NCBI RefSeq assembly: GCF_024298765.1
Contig: NZ_CP101210.1
DNA length: 64,000 nucleotides
Direction: 5' to 3' (one strand)
From: Escherichia coli
GTDB taxonomy: Bacteria; Pseudomonadota; Gammaproteobacteria; Enterobacterales; Enterobacteriaceae
Shown: piece by piece, positions 6,001 to 12,000 of the stretch
Layout: the number at the start of each line of letters is the position of its first letter
Numbering within the stretch: the stretch's first letter is position 1
Position numbers: made by a program

Positions 6001-9000
6001 CATTACATGGGGTAGGATCAGTATTCCTCTATCAGGGGTAACTCGACCAGGCTGGCTGAGCTCTCGTTTTACTGCGAGTATCTATGCCCATTCAGCCAGT
6101 GTCAGCGCGAGAGTGTTAAATTCCGAGCGATTATCCATGCGCAGCATGACCGGATAACCATGATTTAGCCCCTGCCGAGCTAATCGGGAACTGCATAGCA
6201 CTCTCAATATGGAATAAGCGATAATTATCGCTTATTCCCAGCAAAATATCATGCCTCATCGGTGCTTTACGAGGCGATCGCTGCAATAAAGCGTGTCGTT
6301 ATCTGCTGCGGACGAGTGATTGCCCCCCCAACCACCACGGTATGAGCGCCTAATGTCAGGCAACGTGCGGCGCACTCCGGGGTGTCGACATTCCCTTCCG
6401 CCACGACCGGAACGCTGACCGCTTTCAGGACCTCACGTAAGAATCCACAGTCATTTTCCGCCAGCACATGCCTGGCAGTTTCTGCGGTATAGCCGTAGAG
6501 CGTAGTGCCCACACAGTCAAAACCCAGACGTTCAGCTGTCACTGCCTCTTCTACTGTTGCTATATCTGCCATCAGAAGTATGGACGGGTAGCGAGCGCGG
6601 ATCTGCGTGACCAGTTCTTCCAGCGTCTGACCACCAGGGCGCGGGCGCGCAGTAGCATCTAGGGCAATAATTTCCGGCTCAACGGTCATCAGCTCATCCA
6701 CTTCCCGGAGAGTGGCCGTGATAAACACCTCACTGCCAGGGTAATCGCGTTTGATAATCCCTATCATCGGAAGGGAGACAATCTCTTTGATAGCACTAAT
6801 ATCCGCCACGCTGTTGGCACGGATACCTGCAGCACCACCTTGTGCTGCCGCCAGCGCCATACGTGACATAATAAACGGACTATGTAGAGGCTCATTTTCC
6901 AGAGCCTGACAGGAGACGATTAATTTACCTTTCAGGGAATCCAGTACAGTTTTCATTACGATAAAATCTCTTCGACTTCGTTTTTAATGATGGTGACATG
7001 AGGGCCATAAATCACCTGAACGCCGTTGCCGCGAATAATCACGCCACGCGCTCCGGCCACTTTCAGCGCAGCTTCATCTACCTTACTGCTCTCTTTAACC
7101 GTCACGCGCAGGCGCGTGGCGCAACAGTCCACCTCTTCCAGATTCTCTTTGCCTCCCAGCCCGGCAATGACTGCCGCTGCGCGTTCACTCTGAGGCTGGC
7201 CGGATTCAACCTGGGTTACGTTCTCACGCCCCGGCGTCAGCCAGCCAAAGCGGTTAATCAAATAGCGGAAAGTAAAGTAGTAAAGGAAGAACCACGGTAT
7301 TCCCACTATGGGGACATACATCCAGTTTGTTTTAGCTTCCCCCTGCAACACGCCGAAGAGAAGGAAATCGATAAGCCCGCCCGAAAAGGTTTGCCCAATA
7401 GTGATATGTAAAATATGGGCGACCATAAACGCCAGACCATCGAAGAAGGCGTGAATTACGTATAATACGGGCGCGACAAACAGGAAGGAGAACTCAACAG
7501 GCTCAGTGATTCCCGTCAGGAAAGAGGTCAGGGCTGCCGACAAAAGTAGTCCGGCGACAACCTTTCTATTCTCCGGCTTTGCAGTATGGTACATTGCCAG
7601 ACATGCGCCAAGCAGGCCAAACATCATGGTGATAAAGCGCCCGGACATAAAGCGAGCGGTACCCGCGTAGAACTGCTGCGTATTCGGATCGGCAAGTTGG
7701 GCAAAGAAAATCCGCTGCGTACCTTCAACCAACTGGCCGTTGACGATTTCACTGCCGCCCAGCGCCGTCGTCCAGAACGGCAAATAAAAGATATGGTGTA
7801 AACCCAGTGGACCGAGCATACGCAGGATGAAGCCGTACAACAGCGTCCCCAGATAGCCCGTCGCATCCACCAGGTCGCCCAGTCCAAAAATGAGTTTCTG
7901 GAAATGCGGCCACACCACCGTCATAACCGCACCCACTACTATCGCGGCAAGGGAGCTGATAATGGGTACAAAACGAGAACCACTAAAAAAACCGAGAAAC
8001 TGAGGTAGTGAGACTTTATTGAAACGGCTATGTAAAGTGCAGGTGACGAGACCAATCACCACCCCACCAAACACACCAGTTTCCAGTGTCTGAATACCAA
8101 GCGTCATCCCCTGGCCAACTGAAGCGGGGTTCTTGTGCGCCAGCGTTCCGTTGAGCGTTAATAAGGCGTTGATGGTGGCATTCATCACCAGAAACGCCAG
8201 CAATGACGCAAGCCCGGCAGTGCCTTTATCCGATTTCGCCAGCCCCACGGCGACGCCGACTGCAAAGAGTACCGACAGGTTGGCAAACACAATAGAACCT
8301 GCGCTGGTCATGATTGTGAATATTGCCTGCAACCAGTCGGCATCTAAAAACGGATAAGCCGTCAACGTGTTTGGATTTGACAACGCGCCACCAATCCCTA
8401 ATAACAGCCCTGCTGCGGGCAATACCGCAATCGGCAGCATGAAGGATTTTCCGAACCGCTGCGCTTTTTCAAACCATCCCCCCGATGAAGCGCCGCTAAA
8501 CATTTGCATCATTTTATCATCTCCTCGATTTTTGATGAAAATTTTTACCATAATTATTCTTATAAATAAAAATCACCATCAAAATCTAAGAAGTCGATCA
8601 TACTTTTTTAAAATGTCTGGCATCAATCCCCTCCTTTCCGTCACACTATCAACAGATAAACGCATTAAGGATTTTACATGTCAGAAAATGAAAACCTGCT
8701 GCTGAGATTGCGCCAGAGCGTTGATGGATATAGCCGAACACAACAGAAGCTGGGAGAGTTTGTACTTAGCGATCCGGCAAAAGTTGTCTACCTGACGATT
8801 ACCGAACTTGCGCGTGAAAGCGGCACCAGCGAGGCTAGCGTCACACGTCTGTGCCGAACGCTTGGGTGTAAGGGCTATAACGAATTCAAAATGGCGCTGG
8901 CACTCGATCTCCGACAAGTACAGTTTGTAGAGCACGGCGGTGATGAGATTGACAATGTGGTCAATGAATCCGTGCAAGCAATACAGGACACAGCAAAATT

Positions 9001-12000
9001 ACTCGACAGAGCCTTGCTGGAAGCAGCCGCGCTTGCACTGCATCAGGCTCAGTCAGTGCAGATTTATGGCGTAGCAGCCAGTGCCATTCTGGGGGAGTAT
9101 TTACATTATAAACTCCTGCGTCTGGGGAAACCCGCACAATTGTTCAGCGATATGCATCGTGCTGCCATGAACGCCACAACACTTAGTAAAAACACGTTCG
9201 TGGTGGCGATTTCCAGTTCTGGATCCACGCGCGATCTGCTGCATGTCGTAAAACTAGCGCGTAAGCAAGGTGTGCGTGTACTGGCGCTGAGTAATACACC
9301 GCGCAGTCCGTTAGCTTCGCTGAGTGATATTCAACTGGTCGCGGCCAAACCGGAAGGACCCTTGAGTGCCGGCGCGCTGACTGCCAAAGTGGGAGTGATG
9401 CTGTTGGTAGAGCTACTCACCACATCGCTGATTGCGCTGGATGACCAGTACAGCGAGGTGAGCCAGAAAACAGCCAGCGCGACCCTACCGCTACTGCTTT
9501 AAAGACATAAAAAACCGCCGAAGCGCTGGGTGCTCCCCATGAATCAGTGATAATAAACCAACATCATATTCTGGTAGGTTCTGGCGAGGTGATTAAAAAC
9601 GGTGCTCAGCACCGTTCGTTTTTAAATTAGCGAGGAGTATCGTAAGATGCTCTTCCCCCTACTTCAGAAAATCCTTCACATCCAGTAGAATAAACTCGTT
9701 GTCATCCGCCATATTAGGCCAGCGGCTGGAGGAAAACGGGAAGTTATTATCGTTGCCTACGATGATGTGGTTAGTGTCAACCACATCCACGTTCTCGATG
9801 GTGAAGAACGGGAAGGTCAGCACACCGTCGTTCAGCGGCTTGCGTGCCAGCTTGTTCGGATCCTGAATCTTCATCAGGTCAATATAGCCCAGTTTTTCGA
9901 CAGGTTTTCCGACGTTAGTGTCCGAGAAAGCAATTTTATACACCCGTTTGAACCTGGCTACTTGACTGAAGCAGTTGTTGGTCGGCGCGCCGGCGACGCA
10001 GGCTTTATCCGCCGTGCCTTCGCCGTTATCACGCTCGATCACCAGTCCGTGGGTATCATCTATCATATTGAAGTCGCCGATGGCGTTCTGGTTGTCTTCC
10101 AGCACGTACTGCCAGCTGCGACCAGTCCAGGCCTGCTGTTTGGCATCGAACTCCAGCACACGCAGGTAGCGTTTTCCGTCAACGTTCTCGAACTGCTCAC
10201 CGTCCCACAATGCCCCTTCCAGCAGCGGATACAGCTTACTGCCGTCCGGCGAGATGGCCATGCCTTCAAAGCCTTTGGAACGCGCCACCTGGAAGTTCAG
10301 CTTACCGTCCGGAGCGCTAGGTAGAGTCAGCGTCGGGTTGTCCGGCGATTTAACCACCTTACCGTCCACTTCTGTGTCGAACACCGCCAGCACCTTGCCG
10401 TTCAGGTCGGTCTTGATCAGGTAAGGACCGAACTCATCACCGATCCATAAGGCATCGTCGGAAAACTGGAAGCTTTCCGGATCAAAATCGCTGCCGGTCA
10501 GATAGCGTAGTTCGGTGCTCTCGTTGATGATGTGGAACGGCACCTTTTTATCCGGATCATGCAGGAACAGCGTCTTCAGCGGTACTACCGAGCCGTCTTT
10601 GAAATCTATCTTGTATTGGTTGAGGTACAGCATGGCGTCCGGGGAGTTGGCTTTGCTGCCGAAGCCATTGTCAGTCAGCACCCAATAGGTACCGTCGGGC
10701 ATGTGTTTGATACCTGAGTGGCCCTGCAACGGCTGACCATTGATCGGCAGGCTGAGTCCTGTCAGGCGTTCTGCGGATTTGCCCGCCACGCTGCCCAGCT
10801 CGGTGACGCGTTTGCCGCTGGTGTATTTGCCGCTCTGTTGCAAATCGCCCGGCGCATCCTTCGGTGTTGAAACAGCGGATTTTGCCGGCAGAATTGCATG
10901 CCCGGCCAGCGTTGCCTGCACCGGCTGCGCTTTGGCCCACAGGTTGGCGCTCAGAGCCATGCAGCCAACCAGTATAGCCAGCCGGATTTTGGAGTTGTGC
11001 ATGTCATACTCTCCTTTCGTTGTTATCGCCCAGAAGTAAAACTAACGTCATTGTAGGGAGCAGAAATGACAGAAATATTATGATTACGGTAGGGATAGCC
11101 GTTGCCGGCTTGGATTTGCCCCTATATTTCCAGACATCTGTTATCACTTAACCCATTACAAGCCCGCTGCCGCAGATATTCCCGTGGCGAGCGATAACCC
11201 AGCGCACTATGCGGATGCCATTCGTTATAATGCTCGAACGCCTCTGCAAGGTTCTTTGCTGCCGTTAACCCGTCTGGTTTGGGCATGATACTGATGTAGT
11301 CACGCTTTATCGTTTTCACGAAGCTCTCTGCGATTCCGTTACTCTCCGGACTCCGCACCGCCGTGTTCTTCGGTTCAAGTCCCAACATCCGGGCGAACTG
11401 GCGTGTTTCATTAGCCCGGTAGCATGAACCATTATCCGTCAGCCACTCCACTGGAGACGACGGAAGATCGTTGCCGAAGCGGCGTTCCACCGCTCCCAGC
11501 ATGACGTCCTGTACTGTTTCACTGTTGAAGCCGCCGGTAGTGACCGCCCAGTGCAGTGCCTCACGATCACAGCAGTCCAGCGCGAACGTGACACGCAGTC
11601 TCTCTCCGTTATCACAGCAGAACTCGAACCCGTCAGAGCACCATCGCTGATTGCTTTCTTTCACGGCCACTCTGCCTGTATGTGCCCGTTTCGATGGCGG
11701 TACAGCAGGTTTTCGCTCAAGCAACAGCGCATTCTGGCGCATGATCCGGTAAACACGTTTGGCATTGATCGCAGGCATACCATCAAGTTCTGCTTGTCTG
11801 CGAAGCAGCGCCCATACCCGACGATAACCATACGTGGGCAGCTCTCCGATAACATGGTGTATACGGAGAAGCACATCCGTATCATCAGTGTGACGACTGC
11901 GGCGGCCATCCATCCAGTCATCGGTTCGTCTGAGAATGACGTGCAACTGCGCACGCGACACCCGGAGACAACGGCTGACTAAGCTTACTCCCCATCCCCG

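What the first reader, a model, noticed from the sequence alone, without database searches (positions are those of the whole stretch)
6267..11002. Island-encoded amino-sugar module: PTS EIICB translationally coupled to a NanE-type epimerase, divergent RpiR regulator and a secreted protein of unknown family
The EIICB-nanE operon with a divergent RpiR/SIS regulator implies uptake and phosphorylation of an N-acetylhexosamine (ManNAc-like) with epimerisation to GlcNAc-6-P, separate from the core nan/nag genes. The convergent 447-aa secreted protein (9659..11002) is of uncertain family and may or may not belong to the pathway.
Basis: partly seen in the sequence, partly recalled or inferred. Interest (0 to 1): 0.45.

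Follow-up and report, generated by a model that had tools for sequence, protein, structure and literature searches.

The report
Mobile N-acetylmannosamine uptake cassette in E. coli
This is an intact three-gene sugar-uptake cassette (transporter, epimerase, repressor), carried on an E. coli genomic island, that most likely lets the cell import N-acetylmannosamine; it is a predictable, already auto-annotated member of a known kind of system, and the neighbouring secreted protein is unrelated to it.

Summary
The four ORFs exist as described. The window is E. coli, identical to avian and human isolates, and the region lies in a selC (tRNA-Sec) island.

**The unit** is a 3.35-kb cassette, window 6181-9525:
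- a NanR-like RpiR regulator (8678-9502, +), transcribed divergently from
- a Glc-family PTS EIICB (6956-8512, -, 518 aa, no EIIA), overlapping by one base (TAATG)
- a NanE epimerase (6267-6956, -).

**Evidence for N-acetylmannosamine (ManNAc):**
- NanE keeps all 11 active-site and ligand-contact residues of S. aureus NanE (61% identity).
- The regulator is 44% identical over its full length to V. vulnificus NanR, solved with ManNAc-6-P.
- The EIICB keeps the PtsG sugar pocket except at three residues. Two of them contact glucose OH-2 (E202→L, K257→M) and one contacts OH-1 (N215→Y). All three are invariant in 81 orthologues.
- NanE sits next to the EIICB in 78 of 80 species.

**Spread:** the cassette lies between eno and queE in Citrobacter and Cronobacter. 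It is in 468 of 5426 complete E. coli genomes and on four conjugative plasmids.

**The 447-aa protein** is not of unknown family. It is a PF13449 "phytase-like" β-propeller with a signal peptide, absent from all 80 orthologous loci, stand-alone elsewhere, and preceded by a Pho-box-like promoter.

Transport and regulation are inferred, not shown. Ordinary; modest interest.

The parts
6181..9525 (.). The cassette: the block of homology shared with the eno-queE locus of Citrobacter-type genomes and with other E. coli islands and plasmids
   Evidence: blastn gives 88-89% identity to L014/L020 and 87% to E. coli LHM10-1 over window 6181-9516/9525. Identity to E. coli 55989 is 96% over 6178-9655. 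At least 80% of the block is present in 468 of 5426 complete E. coli genomes and on 4 conjugative plasmids.
6267..6956 (-). NanE-type N-acetylmannosamine-6-phosphate 2-epimerase, 229 aa
   Evidence: PF04131 at E 1.3e-69. NF002231 scores 316 bits against a cut-off of 189. 61% identical to S. aureus NanE (1Y0E/6VVA, E 1e-78). Q17, R46, K69, D131, Y156, E187, G188, N189, G210, G211 and R215 match SaNanE Q11, R40, K63, D124, Y149, E180, G181, N182, G203, G204 and R208 (residue roles from PMC8482478).
6956..8512 (-). PTS EIICB of the glucose family, 518 aa, no EIIA domain; predicted ManNAc permease. The longest ORF runs to 8551.
   Evidence: PF02378 plus PF00367. Below every NCBIfam specificity cut-off: glcB 587.2/591.8, malX 482/632, nag 445/553, E. 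coli PtsG 421/647. 45% identical to E. coli PtsG, 43% to MalX, 38% to NagE. The EIIB phospho-cysteine motif DCCATRLR is present. Pocket changes E202L, N215Y and K257M relative to PtsG are invariant in 81/81 orthologues. A GAGGAG Shine-Dalgarno sequence precedes the ATG at 8512.
8513..8677 (.). Divergent control region with candidate operator boxes that overlap the promoter-like sites of the EIICB-nanE operon
   Evidence: Half-site-like motif TGATGrwAATTTTyA at 8533-8547(+), 8536-8550(-) and 8567-8581(-). Inverted repeat 8530-8547 / 8567-8584. The boxes are conserved in Cronobacter and Serratia and partly in Aeromonas (alignment A1). Promoter-like hexamers on the minus strand at 8626-8597 and 8582-8553.
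8678..9502 (+). RpiR-family regulator, NanR-like, 274 aa (HTH_6 plus SIS)
   Evidence: PF01418 plus PF01380. The best solved relative is V. vulnificus NanR in complex with ManNAc-6-P: 4IVN, E 1.5e-68, residues 3-273, 44% identity. The next best are RccR at 5e-32 and MurR at 2e-17. The SSSGST phosphate loop is conserved.
6211..6238 (-). Perfect 28-nt palindrome (GGAATAAGCGATAATTATCGCTTATTCC) 29 nt after the nanE stop; possible operon terminator
   Evidence: Read directly from the sequence. It lies inside the conserved cassette block. No T-run follows, so a terminator role is inferred only.
9598..9616 (+). Terminator-like hairpin between the convergent rpiR and phytase-like genes
   Evidence: 8-bp stem, 5 G-C pairs, T-rich tail. 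It lies outside the cassette block, in the spacer shared with strain 55989.
9659..11002 (-). Neighbour that is NOT part of the module: secreted PF13449 'phytase-like' β-propeller protein, 447 aa
   Evidence: PF13449 at E 5.4e-61. Signal peptide present. Homologues are 67-84% identical in Serratia, Providencia, Pectobacterium, Polaromonas and Cupriavidus. Stand-alone gene in Serratia and Providencia. Absent from 80/80 EIICB loci. The AF2 model (pLDDT 77.6) is a β-propeller with only generic structural matches. A Pho-box-like repeat CTGTCAT, 10 nt, then TACAAT lies upstream.
11111..12441 (-). IS2 inserted 108 bp upstream of the phytase-like start codon, with 5-bp target duplication CGGCT
   Evidence: Junctions read. 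The uninterrupted site is seen in strain ET5 (L003). rve and HTH_Tnp_1 domains found.

Best explanation
The unit is a self-contained, horizontally mobile catabolic cassette for N-acetylmannosamine (ManNAc), or a very close 2-acetamido-hexose.

Proposed mechanism:
1. The EIICB takes up the sugar and phosphorylates it at O-6. It has no EIIA domain, so the phosphoryl group must come from the chromosomal general PTS proteins and EIIA-Glc (Crr).
2. The translationally coupled NanE epimerises ManNAc-6-P to GlcNAc-6-P.
3. GlcNAc-6-P enters the core NagA/NagB pathway, which lies outside the window.
4. The divergent NanR-like RpiR protein represses the EIICB-nanE promoter. It would do so by binding the AT-rich repeated boxes at 8533-8581, and would be released when ManNAc-6-P binds its SIS domain.

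Shown here: gene integrity, domain content, conservation of active-site and pocket residues, conserved gene linkage, and mobility.
Inferred: the substrate, the use of Crr, repression, the operator and the inducer.

The adjacent 447-aa protein is a separate, probably PhoB-controlled, secreted phosphoesterase-like β-propeller.
For: - **NanE.** It is a full match to the family and keeps all 11 catalytic and ligand-contact residues defined for S. aureus NanE (PMC8482478).
- **Regulator.** It is far closer to the ManNAc-6-P-binding repressor NanR of V. vulnificus (4IVN, E 1.5e-68, 44% identity, full length) than to RccR, MurR or pneumococcal NanR.
- **Gene linkage.** In 80 species-level loci with EIICB at 69-96% identity, spanning Enterobacterales, Bacillales and Selenomonadales, NanE is adjacent in 78. 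One exception is cut off by the end of the stretch that was fetched. An RpiR gene is divergent upstream in nearly all Enterobacterales.
- **Pathway context.** In Selenomonas the pair sits in nagB-nagA-EIICB-nanE-DUF386-ROK-rpiR. This links it directly to amino-sugar breakdown, with no nanA lyase or sialic acid transporter nearby.
- **Sugar pocket.** Eight of eleven PtsG glucose-contact residues are kept. E202 and K257, which bind glucose OH-2, are Leu and Met. N215, which binds OH-1, is Tyr. All three are invariant in 81/81 orthologues. E. coli NagE, the GlcNAc permease, has Asn at the E202 position and Met at the K257 position, while MalX keeps Glu at the E202 position (PMC11393339).
- **Specificity classes.** The EIICB falls below the NCBIfam cut-offs of all named classes.
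- **Control region.** Repeated boxes are conserved across genera and overlap promoter-like sites.
- **Analogy.** The S. pneumoniae nan operon pairs nanE with an EIIA-less Glc-family EIIBC under an RpiR NanR that binds ManNAc-6-P (PMC3302838, PMC12713135). In Listeria, an RpiR-controlled nanE operon is required for growth on ManNAc (PMC10667646).
Against: - No transport, growth or binding experiment exists for this cassette in any organism. I found none in ten literature searches.
- The pneumococcal counterpart SP1684 gave a phenotype on glucosamine, and ManNAc uptake by it was not shown (PMC3302838).
- The best NCBIfam score is to the glucose-type model TIGR02002, only 4.6 bits below its cut-off.
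- The pocket argument rests on a sequence alignment to PtsG, not on a structure of this protein.
- The operator is a conserved motif only. The DNA site of V. vulnificus NanR is not defined, and one RpiR NanR (S. pneumoniae) is an activator.
- E. coli already takes up ManNAc through ManXYZ (established knowledge, also stated in PMC10667646), so the benefit may be quantitative only.
Confidence: 0.7

Rival explanations
1. The EIICB carries a different sugar, such as glucosamine, glucose or GlcNAc. NanE and the regulator then serve mainly as an extra, ManNAc-6-P-inducible branch of sialic acid catabolism: ManNAc-6-P made by the core NanA/NanK would induce the cassette, and the second NanE would raise flux.
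For: Mutants of pneumococcal SP1684, an EIIA-less Glc-family EIIBC next to nanE, grew more slowly on glucosamine (PMC3302838). The best NCBIfam hit is the glucose-type TIGR02002, at 587.2 bits against a cut-off of 591.8. Eight of eleven PtsG pocket residues are kept.
Against: The two residues that bind glucose OH-2 in PtsG are replaced by hydrophobic ones in all 81 orthologues, and NagE also carries Met at the K257 position. In PtsG, 2-deoxyglucose and mannose gave little or no stabilisation, so OH-2 contacts determine specificity (PMC11393339). Most of the 80 loci carry only EIICB, NanE and RpiR, with no nanA, nanK or sialic acid transporter detected nearby. A NanE would serve no purpose there unless the permease delivers its substrate.
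Confidence: 0.17
2. The cassette is inert island cargo: a decaying passenger that is no longer expressed or useful in E. coli.
For: It sits among IS2, IS110, IS66 and IS1 copies and several pseudogenes. In some strains the neighbourhood is truncated by IS1.
Against: All three ORFs are intact and full length. The protein products are the same RefSeq WP entries in many strains. Catalytic and pocket residues are invariant. The cassette is kept whole in 468 genomes, at three or more chromosomal sites and on conjugative plasmids.
Confidence: 0.05
3. The 447-aa secreted protein is part of the pathway, for example by releasing the transported amino sugar from a polymer or a phosphorylated precursor outside the cell.
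For: It is immediately adjacent and convergent. The two co-occur in 147 E. coli genomes.
Against: It lies outside the conserved cassette block. No homologue lies within 6 kb of the EIICB in 80/80 species. It is a stand-alone gene among unrelated neighbours in Serratia and Providencia. It occurs without the cassette in E. coli ET5, and the cassette occurs without it in 55989, LHM10-1, Citrobacter and Cronobacter. Its upstream region resembles a Pho box, not the cassette's operator boxes.
Confidence: 0.03

Closest known systems
S. pneumoniae nan operon I, nanE-nanP (SP1685-SP1684), with the RpiR regulator NanR (SP1674)
   Same: A NanE gene lies next to a glucose-family PTS EIIBC that has no EIIA domain. 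Control is by an RpiR/SIS regulator whose effector is ManNAc-6-P (PMC3302838, PMC12713135).
   Different: The pneumococcal operon also carries ABC transporters, nanA and nanK, and serves sialic acid use. The gene order is nanE then nanP. SpNanR is an activator and only a distant relative (8V4V, E 1.4e-13). SP1684 was linked experimentally to glucosamine, not ManNAc. I could not obtain the SP1684 sequence, so orthology with the window's EIICB is untested.
Vibrio vulnificus NanR (PDB 4IVN), the RpiR-type repressor of the nan genes
   Same: 44% identity over the full length, with the same HTH_6 plus SIS architecture and a conserved SSSGST phosphate loop. It is a repressor relieved by ManNAc-6-P and binds two adjacent sites in a divergent control region (as summarised in PMC12713135).
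   Different: In Vibrio it controls a TRAP sialic acid transporter, nanA and nanEK-nagA. Here it is paired only with a PTS permease and NanE. Ligand and DNA binding of the E. coli protein are untested.
E. coli murR / murQ-murP (MurNAc utilisation)
   Same: The design logic is the same: an RpiR/SIS repressor divergent from a two-gene operon. That operon encodes an EIIA-less glucose-superfamily EIIBC plus the one enzyme that converts the imported sugar-6-phosphate to GlcNAc-6-P (PMC9177960 and established knowledge).
   Different: MurQ is an etherase, not an epimerase. The window's EIICB matches the MurP model only in its EIIB part (36 bits). MurR is a distant relative (E 2e-17).
E. coli core route for ManNAc: ManXYZ, NanE, NagA/NagB (established knowledge; route also stated in PMC10667646)
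   Same: The chemistry is the same: ManNAc to ManNAc-6-P by a PTS, then NanE to GlcNAc-6-P.
   Different: The permease is of a different PTS family (mannose family against glucose family). The island NanE is of the Firmicutes type: E 1e-78 to S. aureus NanE against about 1e-37 to the Salmonella NanE structures 3Q58 and 3IGS. The core nan operon is controlled by a regulator other than the RpiR type and responds to sialic acid (own knowledge).
Listeria monocytogenes lmo2795-nanE operon
   Same: An RpiR-regulated operon with PTS components and NanE. NanE there is required for growth on ManNAc (PMC10667646).
   Different: The operon encodes separate EIIA and EIIBC components plus ROK, HAD and oxidoreductase genes. 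Lmo2795 acts as an activator.
Pfam PF13449 'esterase-like activity of phytase' proteins (for the 447-aa neighbour)
   Same: Full-length match to the domain. Predicted β-propeller. Secreted.

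Membership tests
PTS glucose-family EIICB permease (Pfam PTS_EIIC + PTS_EIIB) | EIIC membrane domain followed by an EIIB domain carrying the phosphorylatable cysteine | tested here: met
   PF02378 at E 1e-88 and PF00367 at E 2e-15. The Cys aligned with PtsG C421 lies in DCCATRLR. E 1e-107 to E. coli PtsG structures.
PTS glucose-family EIICB permease (Pfam PTS_EIIC + PTS_EIIB) | Conserved sugar-site core: HH motif and GITE motif with the catalytic Glu | tested here: met
   R231, H239, H240, G334, T336, E337, F376 and S377 align with PtsG R203, H211, H212, G295, T297, E298, F337 and S338.
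Glucose-specific PtsG (equivalog) | Score above the curated equivalog cut-off | tested here: not met
   NF008301 scores 421 bits against a cut-off of 647. TIGR02002 scores 587.2 against 591.8. Identity to E. coli PtsG is 45%.
Glucose-specific PtsG (equivalog) | Residues that bind glucose OH-2 and OH-1 (E202, K257, N215) | tested here: not met
   They are replaced by L230, M296 and Y243, invariant in 81/81 orthologues. Residue roles are from PMC11393339.
GlcNAc-specific NagE | Score above the equivalog cut-off, and the EIICBA architecture | tested here: not met
   TIGR01998 scores 444.6 against 553.2. NF007608 scores 287 against 1010. No EIIA domain. 38% identity. It shares Met at the PtsG K257 position with NagE.
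MurNAc-specific MurP / core mur locus | MurP equivalog with an adjacent MurQ etherase | tested here: not met
   NF007152 scores 36 bits against a cut-off of 516, in the EIIB part only. The neighbour is NanE, not a SIS etherase.
NanE, ManNAc-6-P 2-epimerase | Family HMM above its cut-off | tested here: met
   PF04131 scores 233.8 bits against 27. NF002231 scores 316.1 against 189.
NanE, ManNAc-6-P 2-epimerase | Catalytic Lys and Glu plus the Arg/Asp/Gln/Arg active-site set and the phosphate-binding glycines | tested here: met
   Q17, R46, K69, D131, Y156, E187, G188, N189, G210, G211 and R215 are all conserved (against PMC8482478).
NanE, ManNAc-6-P 2-epimerase | Epimerase activity on ManNAc-6-P | not testable with these tools
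   Needs an enzyme assay.
RpiR-type NanR (ManNAc-6-P-responsive regulator) | N-terminal HTH_6 plus C-terminal SIS domain, with full-length similarity to a characterised NanR | tested here: met
   PF01418 plus PF01380. 4IVN at E 1.5e-68 over residues 3-273, 44% identity.
RpiR-type NanR (ManNAc-6-P-responsive regulator) | Binds ManNAc-6-P, which changes its DNA binding | not testable with these tools
   Only the SSSGST phosphate loop could be checked. The paper listing the VvNanR ligand residues was not available.
Core sialic acid (nan) operon | nanA lyase, nanT transporter and nanK kinase adjacent, at the core chromosomal nan position | tested here: not met
   No such genes lie within the island segment. 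The location is a selC island. The NanE is of the Firmicutes type.
PF13449 phytase-like family (447-aa protein) | Domain HMM above the gathering score | tested here: met
   207.4 bits against 27.6, covering residues 90-421.
β-propeller phytase (Bacillus PhyC type) | Specific sequence or structural similarity to a solved β-propeller phytase | tested here: inconclusive

The most novel reading that the evidence does not exclude
The EIICB could define a previously uncharacterised specificity class of the glucose-family PTS: a dedicated ManNAc permease recognisable by the invariant Leu/Tyr/Met pocket signature. It appears to have been exchanged between Firmicutes and Enterobacterales together with a Firmicutes-type NanE, and it now moves among E. 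coli on tRNA islands and conjugative plasmids, many of them from poultry isolates. If so, it would give carriers an inducible ManNAc niche that K-12-type strains lack, and it would supply the first sequence marker for ManNAc-PTS transport. A more remote possibility is that the real substrate is another 2-acetamido sugar and that NanE has a wider substrate range than assumed.
Probability: 0.5. Interest if true: 0.4.

Novelty: new member of a known kind. Interest (0 to 1): 0.27.

Why it matters
If the prediction holds, about 9% of sequenced E. coli carry a compact, transferable route for using N-acetylmannosamine that does not depend on the sialic acid regulon. Carriers include many avian-pathogenic and some enteroaggregative strains. 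This could matter for competition in mucus-rich or polymicrobial niches.

It would also assign a substrate to a widespread but unnamed branch of PtsG-like permeases, which genome annotation currently labels 'maltose/glucose-specific'.

The practical value is mainly in correcting annotation and providing a clean genetic test system. Nothing here challenges current understanding.

Tried and rejected
- **Identity of the island.** I first suspected the selC island AGI-3 of APEC BEN2908. The papers I could read link AGI-3 to the fos locus, and none mentions this cassette. The original AGI-3 paper is not held.
- **Experimental characterisation.** I searched for nanE2, nanP, ManNAc PTS and RpiR plus epimerase in E. 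coli. Nothing covers the enterobacterial cassette. Salmonella 'nanE2' (PDB 3IGS) is only a distant relative (E 2e-37), so it is not the orthologue.
- **Ligand residues of V. vulnificus NanR.** The paper is not held, so only the phosphate loop could be compared.
- **CRP site.** I looked for one in the control region by eye. The TGTGA at the rpiR-proximal end lacks a second half-site, so I rejected it.
- **Orthology with pneumococcal SP1684.** This could not be tested because its sequence was not among the retrievable hits.

Full report
**1. What is there**

The window is E. coli. Bases 5500-12500 are 100% identical to chromosomes of avian and human isolates such as strain 104, NZ_CP029164.1. 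A tRNA-Sec gene lies at 35162-35256. The 394-aa ORF beside it (33678-34862) corresponds to the tyrosine integrase annotated next to tRNA-Sec in strain 104. Core genes (yicJ, yicI) follow. Everything to the left of tRNA-Sec is therefore a selC island, rich in IS elements and pseudogenes.

Their domain content:
- 6267-6956(-): NanE (PF04131, E 1.3e-69).
- 6956-8551(-): PTS_EIIC plus PTS_EIIB, with no EIIA.
- 8678-9502(+): HTH_6 plus SIS, an RpiR-type regulator.
- 9659-11002(-): PF13449 'Phytase-like' (E 5.4e-61).

The EIICB stop and the nanE start overlap by one base, TAATG.

The EIICB start is better placed at 8512. A GAGGAG Shine-Dalgarno sequence lies upstream, homologues are 517-520 aa, and RefSeq uses this start.

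**2. The real unit is a 3.35-kb cassette**

blastn against related loci shows a sharply bounded block, window 6181-9525. It runs from 86 bp past the nanE stop to 23 bp past the rpiR stop. The block recurs at:
- 88-89% identity between eno and queE in Citrobacter-type genomes;
- 87% at the same site in E. coli LHM10-1;
- 96% in another tRNA-type island of E. coli 55989.

Cronobacter also has the module between eno and queE.

At least 80% of the block is present in 468 of 5426 complete E. coli genomes, or 8.6%. It is also on four conjugative plasmids from hen isolates, at 93.4% identity. The cassette is therefore a mobile accessory unit with an older, fixed chromosomal home in related genera.

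**3. The enzyme**

The NanE protein passes the NCBIfam family cut-off, 316 bits against 189. It is 61% identical to S. aureus NanE (1Y0E/6VVA, E 1e-78). It is much further from the Salmonella NanE structures 3Q58 and 3IGS (E about 1e-37).

All residues shown by mutagenesis and crystallography to form the S. aureus active site are conserved. These are Gln11, Arg40, Lys63, Asp124, Glu180 and Arg208, plus Tyr149 and the phosphate-binding Gly181, Asn182, Gly203 and Gly204 (PMC8482478). The corresponding residues here are Q17, R46, K69, D131, E187, R215, Y156, G188, N189, G210 and G211.

**4. The regulator**

Its best solved relative by a wide margin is V. vulnificus NanR crystallised with ManNAc-6-P (4IVN). 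The match has E 1.5e-68, covers residues 3-273, and is 44% identical. The next best are RccR at 5e-32, MurR at 2e-17 and pneumococcal NanR at 1e-13. The Ser/Thr-rich phosphate loop (SSSGST) is conserved.

The 165-bp divergent region contains a palindrome at 8533-8550 and a related box at 8567-8581. Both are conserved in Cronobacter and Serratia and partly in Aeromonas. They overlap promoter-like hexamers for the EIICB operon. This fits a repressor that occludes the promoter, but it is inference. One RpiR NanR, in S. pneumoniae, is an activator (PMC12713135).

**5. The permease**

It belongs to the glucose family. It is 45% identical to E. coli PtsG, 43% to MalX and 38% to NagE, with E 1e-107 to PtsG structures. 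It falls below the curated cut-off of every named specificity class in NCBIfam. The EIIB cysteine is present.

I mapped the glucose-contact residues of PtsG (PMC11393339) onto it. Eight are identical: R203, H211, H212, G295, T297, E298, F337 and S338. Three differ: E202 becomes Leu, K257 becomes Met and N215 becomes Tyr. E202 and K257 are the residues that bind glucose OH-2. N215 binds OH-1.

The Leu/Tyr/Met signature is invariant in all 81 orthologues examined, which are 69-100% identical overall. E. coli NagE, which carries GlcNAc, has Asn at the E202 position and Met at the K257 position. MalX keeps Glu at the E202 position.

Replacing polar OH-2 ligands with hydrophobic residues is what one expects for a sugar with a 2-acetamido group. 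This is the strongest sequence-level argument that the substrate is not glucose.

**6. Conserved linkage**

A scan of one genome per species returned 80 loci. NanE lies immediately beside the EIICB in 78 of them. The exceptions are one Yersinia locus and one locus cut off by the end of the stretch that was fetched (L085).

In Enterobacterales a 59-95% identical RpiR gene is divergent upstream. In Firmicutes an RpiR gene is usually downstream but only about 27% identical.

In Selenomonas the pair sits in nagB-nagA-EIICB-nanE-DUF386-ROK-rpiR. That is an amino-sugar catabolic cluster without a lyase or a sialic acid transporter.

EIICB is 75% identical between E. coli and Selenomonas or Peribacillus. 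Together with the Firmicutes-type NanE, this suggests transfer between the phyla.

**7. Mechanism proposed**

- ManNAc, or a very similar sugar, is imported and phosphorylated by the EIICB. The phosphoryl group would come from EIIA-Glc, since no EIIA is encoded. This follows the precedent of other EIIA-less glucose-family permeases.
- NanE converts ManNAc-6-P to GlcNAc-6-P.
- Core NagA/NagB complete the pathway.
- The NanR-like protein represses until ManNAc-6-P accumulates.

Confidence is about 0.7. None of the biochemical steps has been tested for this cassette. I found no paper on it in ten searches.

The closest experimental analogue is pneumococcal nanE-nanP under NanR. There the PTS gave a phenotype on glucosamine rather than ManNAc (PMC3302838), and this keeps a rival reading alive. 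In Listeria, an RpiR-controlled nanE operon is required for growth on ManNAc (PMC10667646).

**8. The 447-aa protein**

It has a signal peptide and is a full-length PF13449 protein. Homologues are 67-84% identical across γ-, β- and α-proteobacteria.

It is not part of the cassette:
- It lies outside the homology block.
- It has no homologue in any of the 80 loci.
- It is stand-alone among unrelated genes in Serratia and Providencia.
- In E. coli it and the cassette occur without each other.

Upstream there is a Pho-box-like element with phoA-like spacing to a -10 hexamer. It is strongest in Serratia (GAGTCATAATTTTGTCAC, 10 nt, TATAGT) and Providencia (CCATCACGAAACTGTCAT, 10 nt, TATTAT). In the window one perfect repeat remains (CTGTCAT, 10 nt, TACAAT). 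I therefore read the protein as a probable phosphate-starvation-induced secreted phosphoesterase. Confidence is low to moderate.

An IS2 (11111-12441, target duplication CGGCT) sits 108 bp upstream of its start codon.

**9. Verdict**

The system is a new, uncharacterised member of a known kind: a PTS permease, a single converting enzyme and an RpiR regulator, as in murPQ/murR and pneumococcal nanE-nanP/NanR. RefSeq already annotates it, with a misleading 'maltose/glucose-specific' label. Interest is modest.

Noticed in passing
window 9659-11111: The phytase-like gene is preceded by a Pho-box-like repeat with phoA-like spacing to a -10 hexamer (CTGTCAT, 10 nt, TACAAT). Clearer two-repeat Pho boxes lie upstream of the orthologues in Serratia (L017) and Providencia (L019). 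This suggests a PhoB-regulated secreted phosphoesterase.
   Followed up: partly
window 13833-15149 (-): An orphan UgpB-like sn-glycerol-3-phosphate binding protein gene lacks the ugpAEC partners. An IS110 pseudogene and the IS2 separate it from the phytase-like gene. The same trio (phytase-like, IS110 remnant, ugpB-like) occurs in a tRNA-Phe island of E. coli ET5 (L003). It may be a remnant of a phosphate-scavenging segment.
   Followed up: partly
window 11111-12441: A complete IS2 with 5-bp target duplication CGGCT. The uninterrupted site is seen in strain ET5.
   Followed up: yes
window 6100-6180: Just left of the cassette boundary, the minus-strand sequence reads like a fragment of an IS integrase-core ORF (...MLRMDNRSEFNTLALT). 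An IS remnant may therefore flank the cassette.
   Followed up: no
window 19-2064 (+): A transketolase pair (288-1118 and 1111-2064) lies downstream of an ascorbate-type PTS and a LacI regulator in the matching genome. This may correspond to the tkt1 locus described for ExPEC/APEC (PMC3349570); I did not compare the sequences.
   Followed up: no
window 3237-5762: Three small island genes upstream of the cassette: a YadA-like trimeric autotransporter adhesin (3237-4550), a sigma-70 region-4-like HTH protein (4612-5067) and an MliC c-type lysozyme inhibitor (5424-5762, -).
   Followed up: no
window 17493-20273 (+): A TonB-dependent receptor (656 aa) followed by a DUF4198 protein (263 aa). This is a probable metal-uptake pair within the island.
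   Followed up: no
window 20574-23189: The window carries about 2.7 kb more than strain 104 between the cassette and tRNA-Sec. tRNA-Sec is at 35162 in the window, against 32455 expected from strain 104 coordinates. The ORFs at 20574-23189 are one candidate for the extra DNA, but I did not locate or identify it. The window therefore comes from a different strain of the same lineage.
   Followed up: no
window 28988-32485 (+): A large autotransporter (1165 aa) lies just inside the island, near the integrase end.
   Followed up: no
window 39554 onward: Beyond selC and yicJI there is a BglG-type antiterminator, fructose-type PTS IIA/IIB/IIC, two aldolases, a ROK kinase and a sugar isomerase, lying between yicI and yicH. 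Going by the strain 104 annotation, this looks like the frz operon reported in ExPEC (mentioned in PMC3349570).
   Followed up: no
L006-L008 (Selenomonas), L078 (Mitsuokella): In Negativicutes the EIICB-NanE pair is embedded in a larger cluster with nagB, nagA, a DUF386 (YhcH-like) protein and a ROK kinase, but no nanA. This would be a complete ManNAc-to-fructose-6-P route. It also contains a kinase that seems redundant alongside a PTS.
   Followed up: partly
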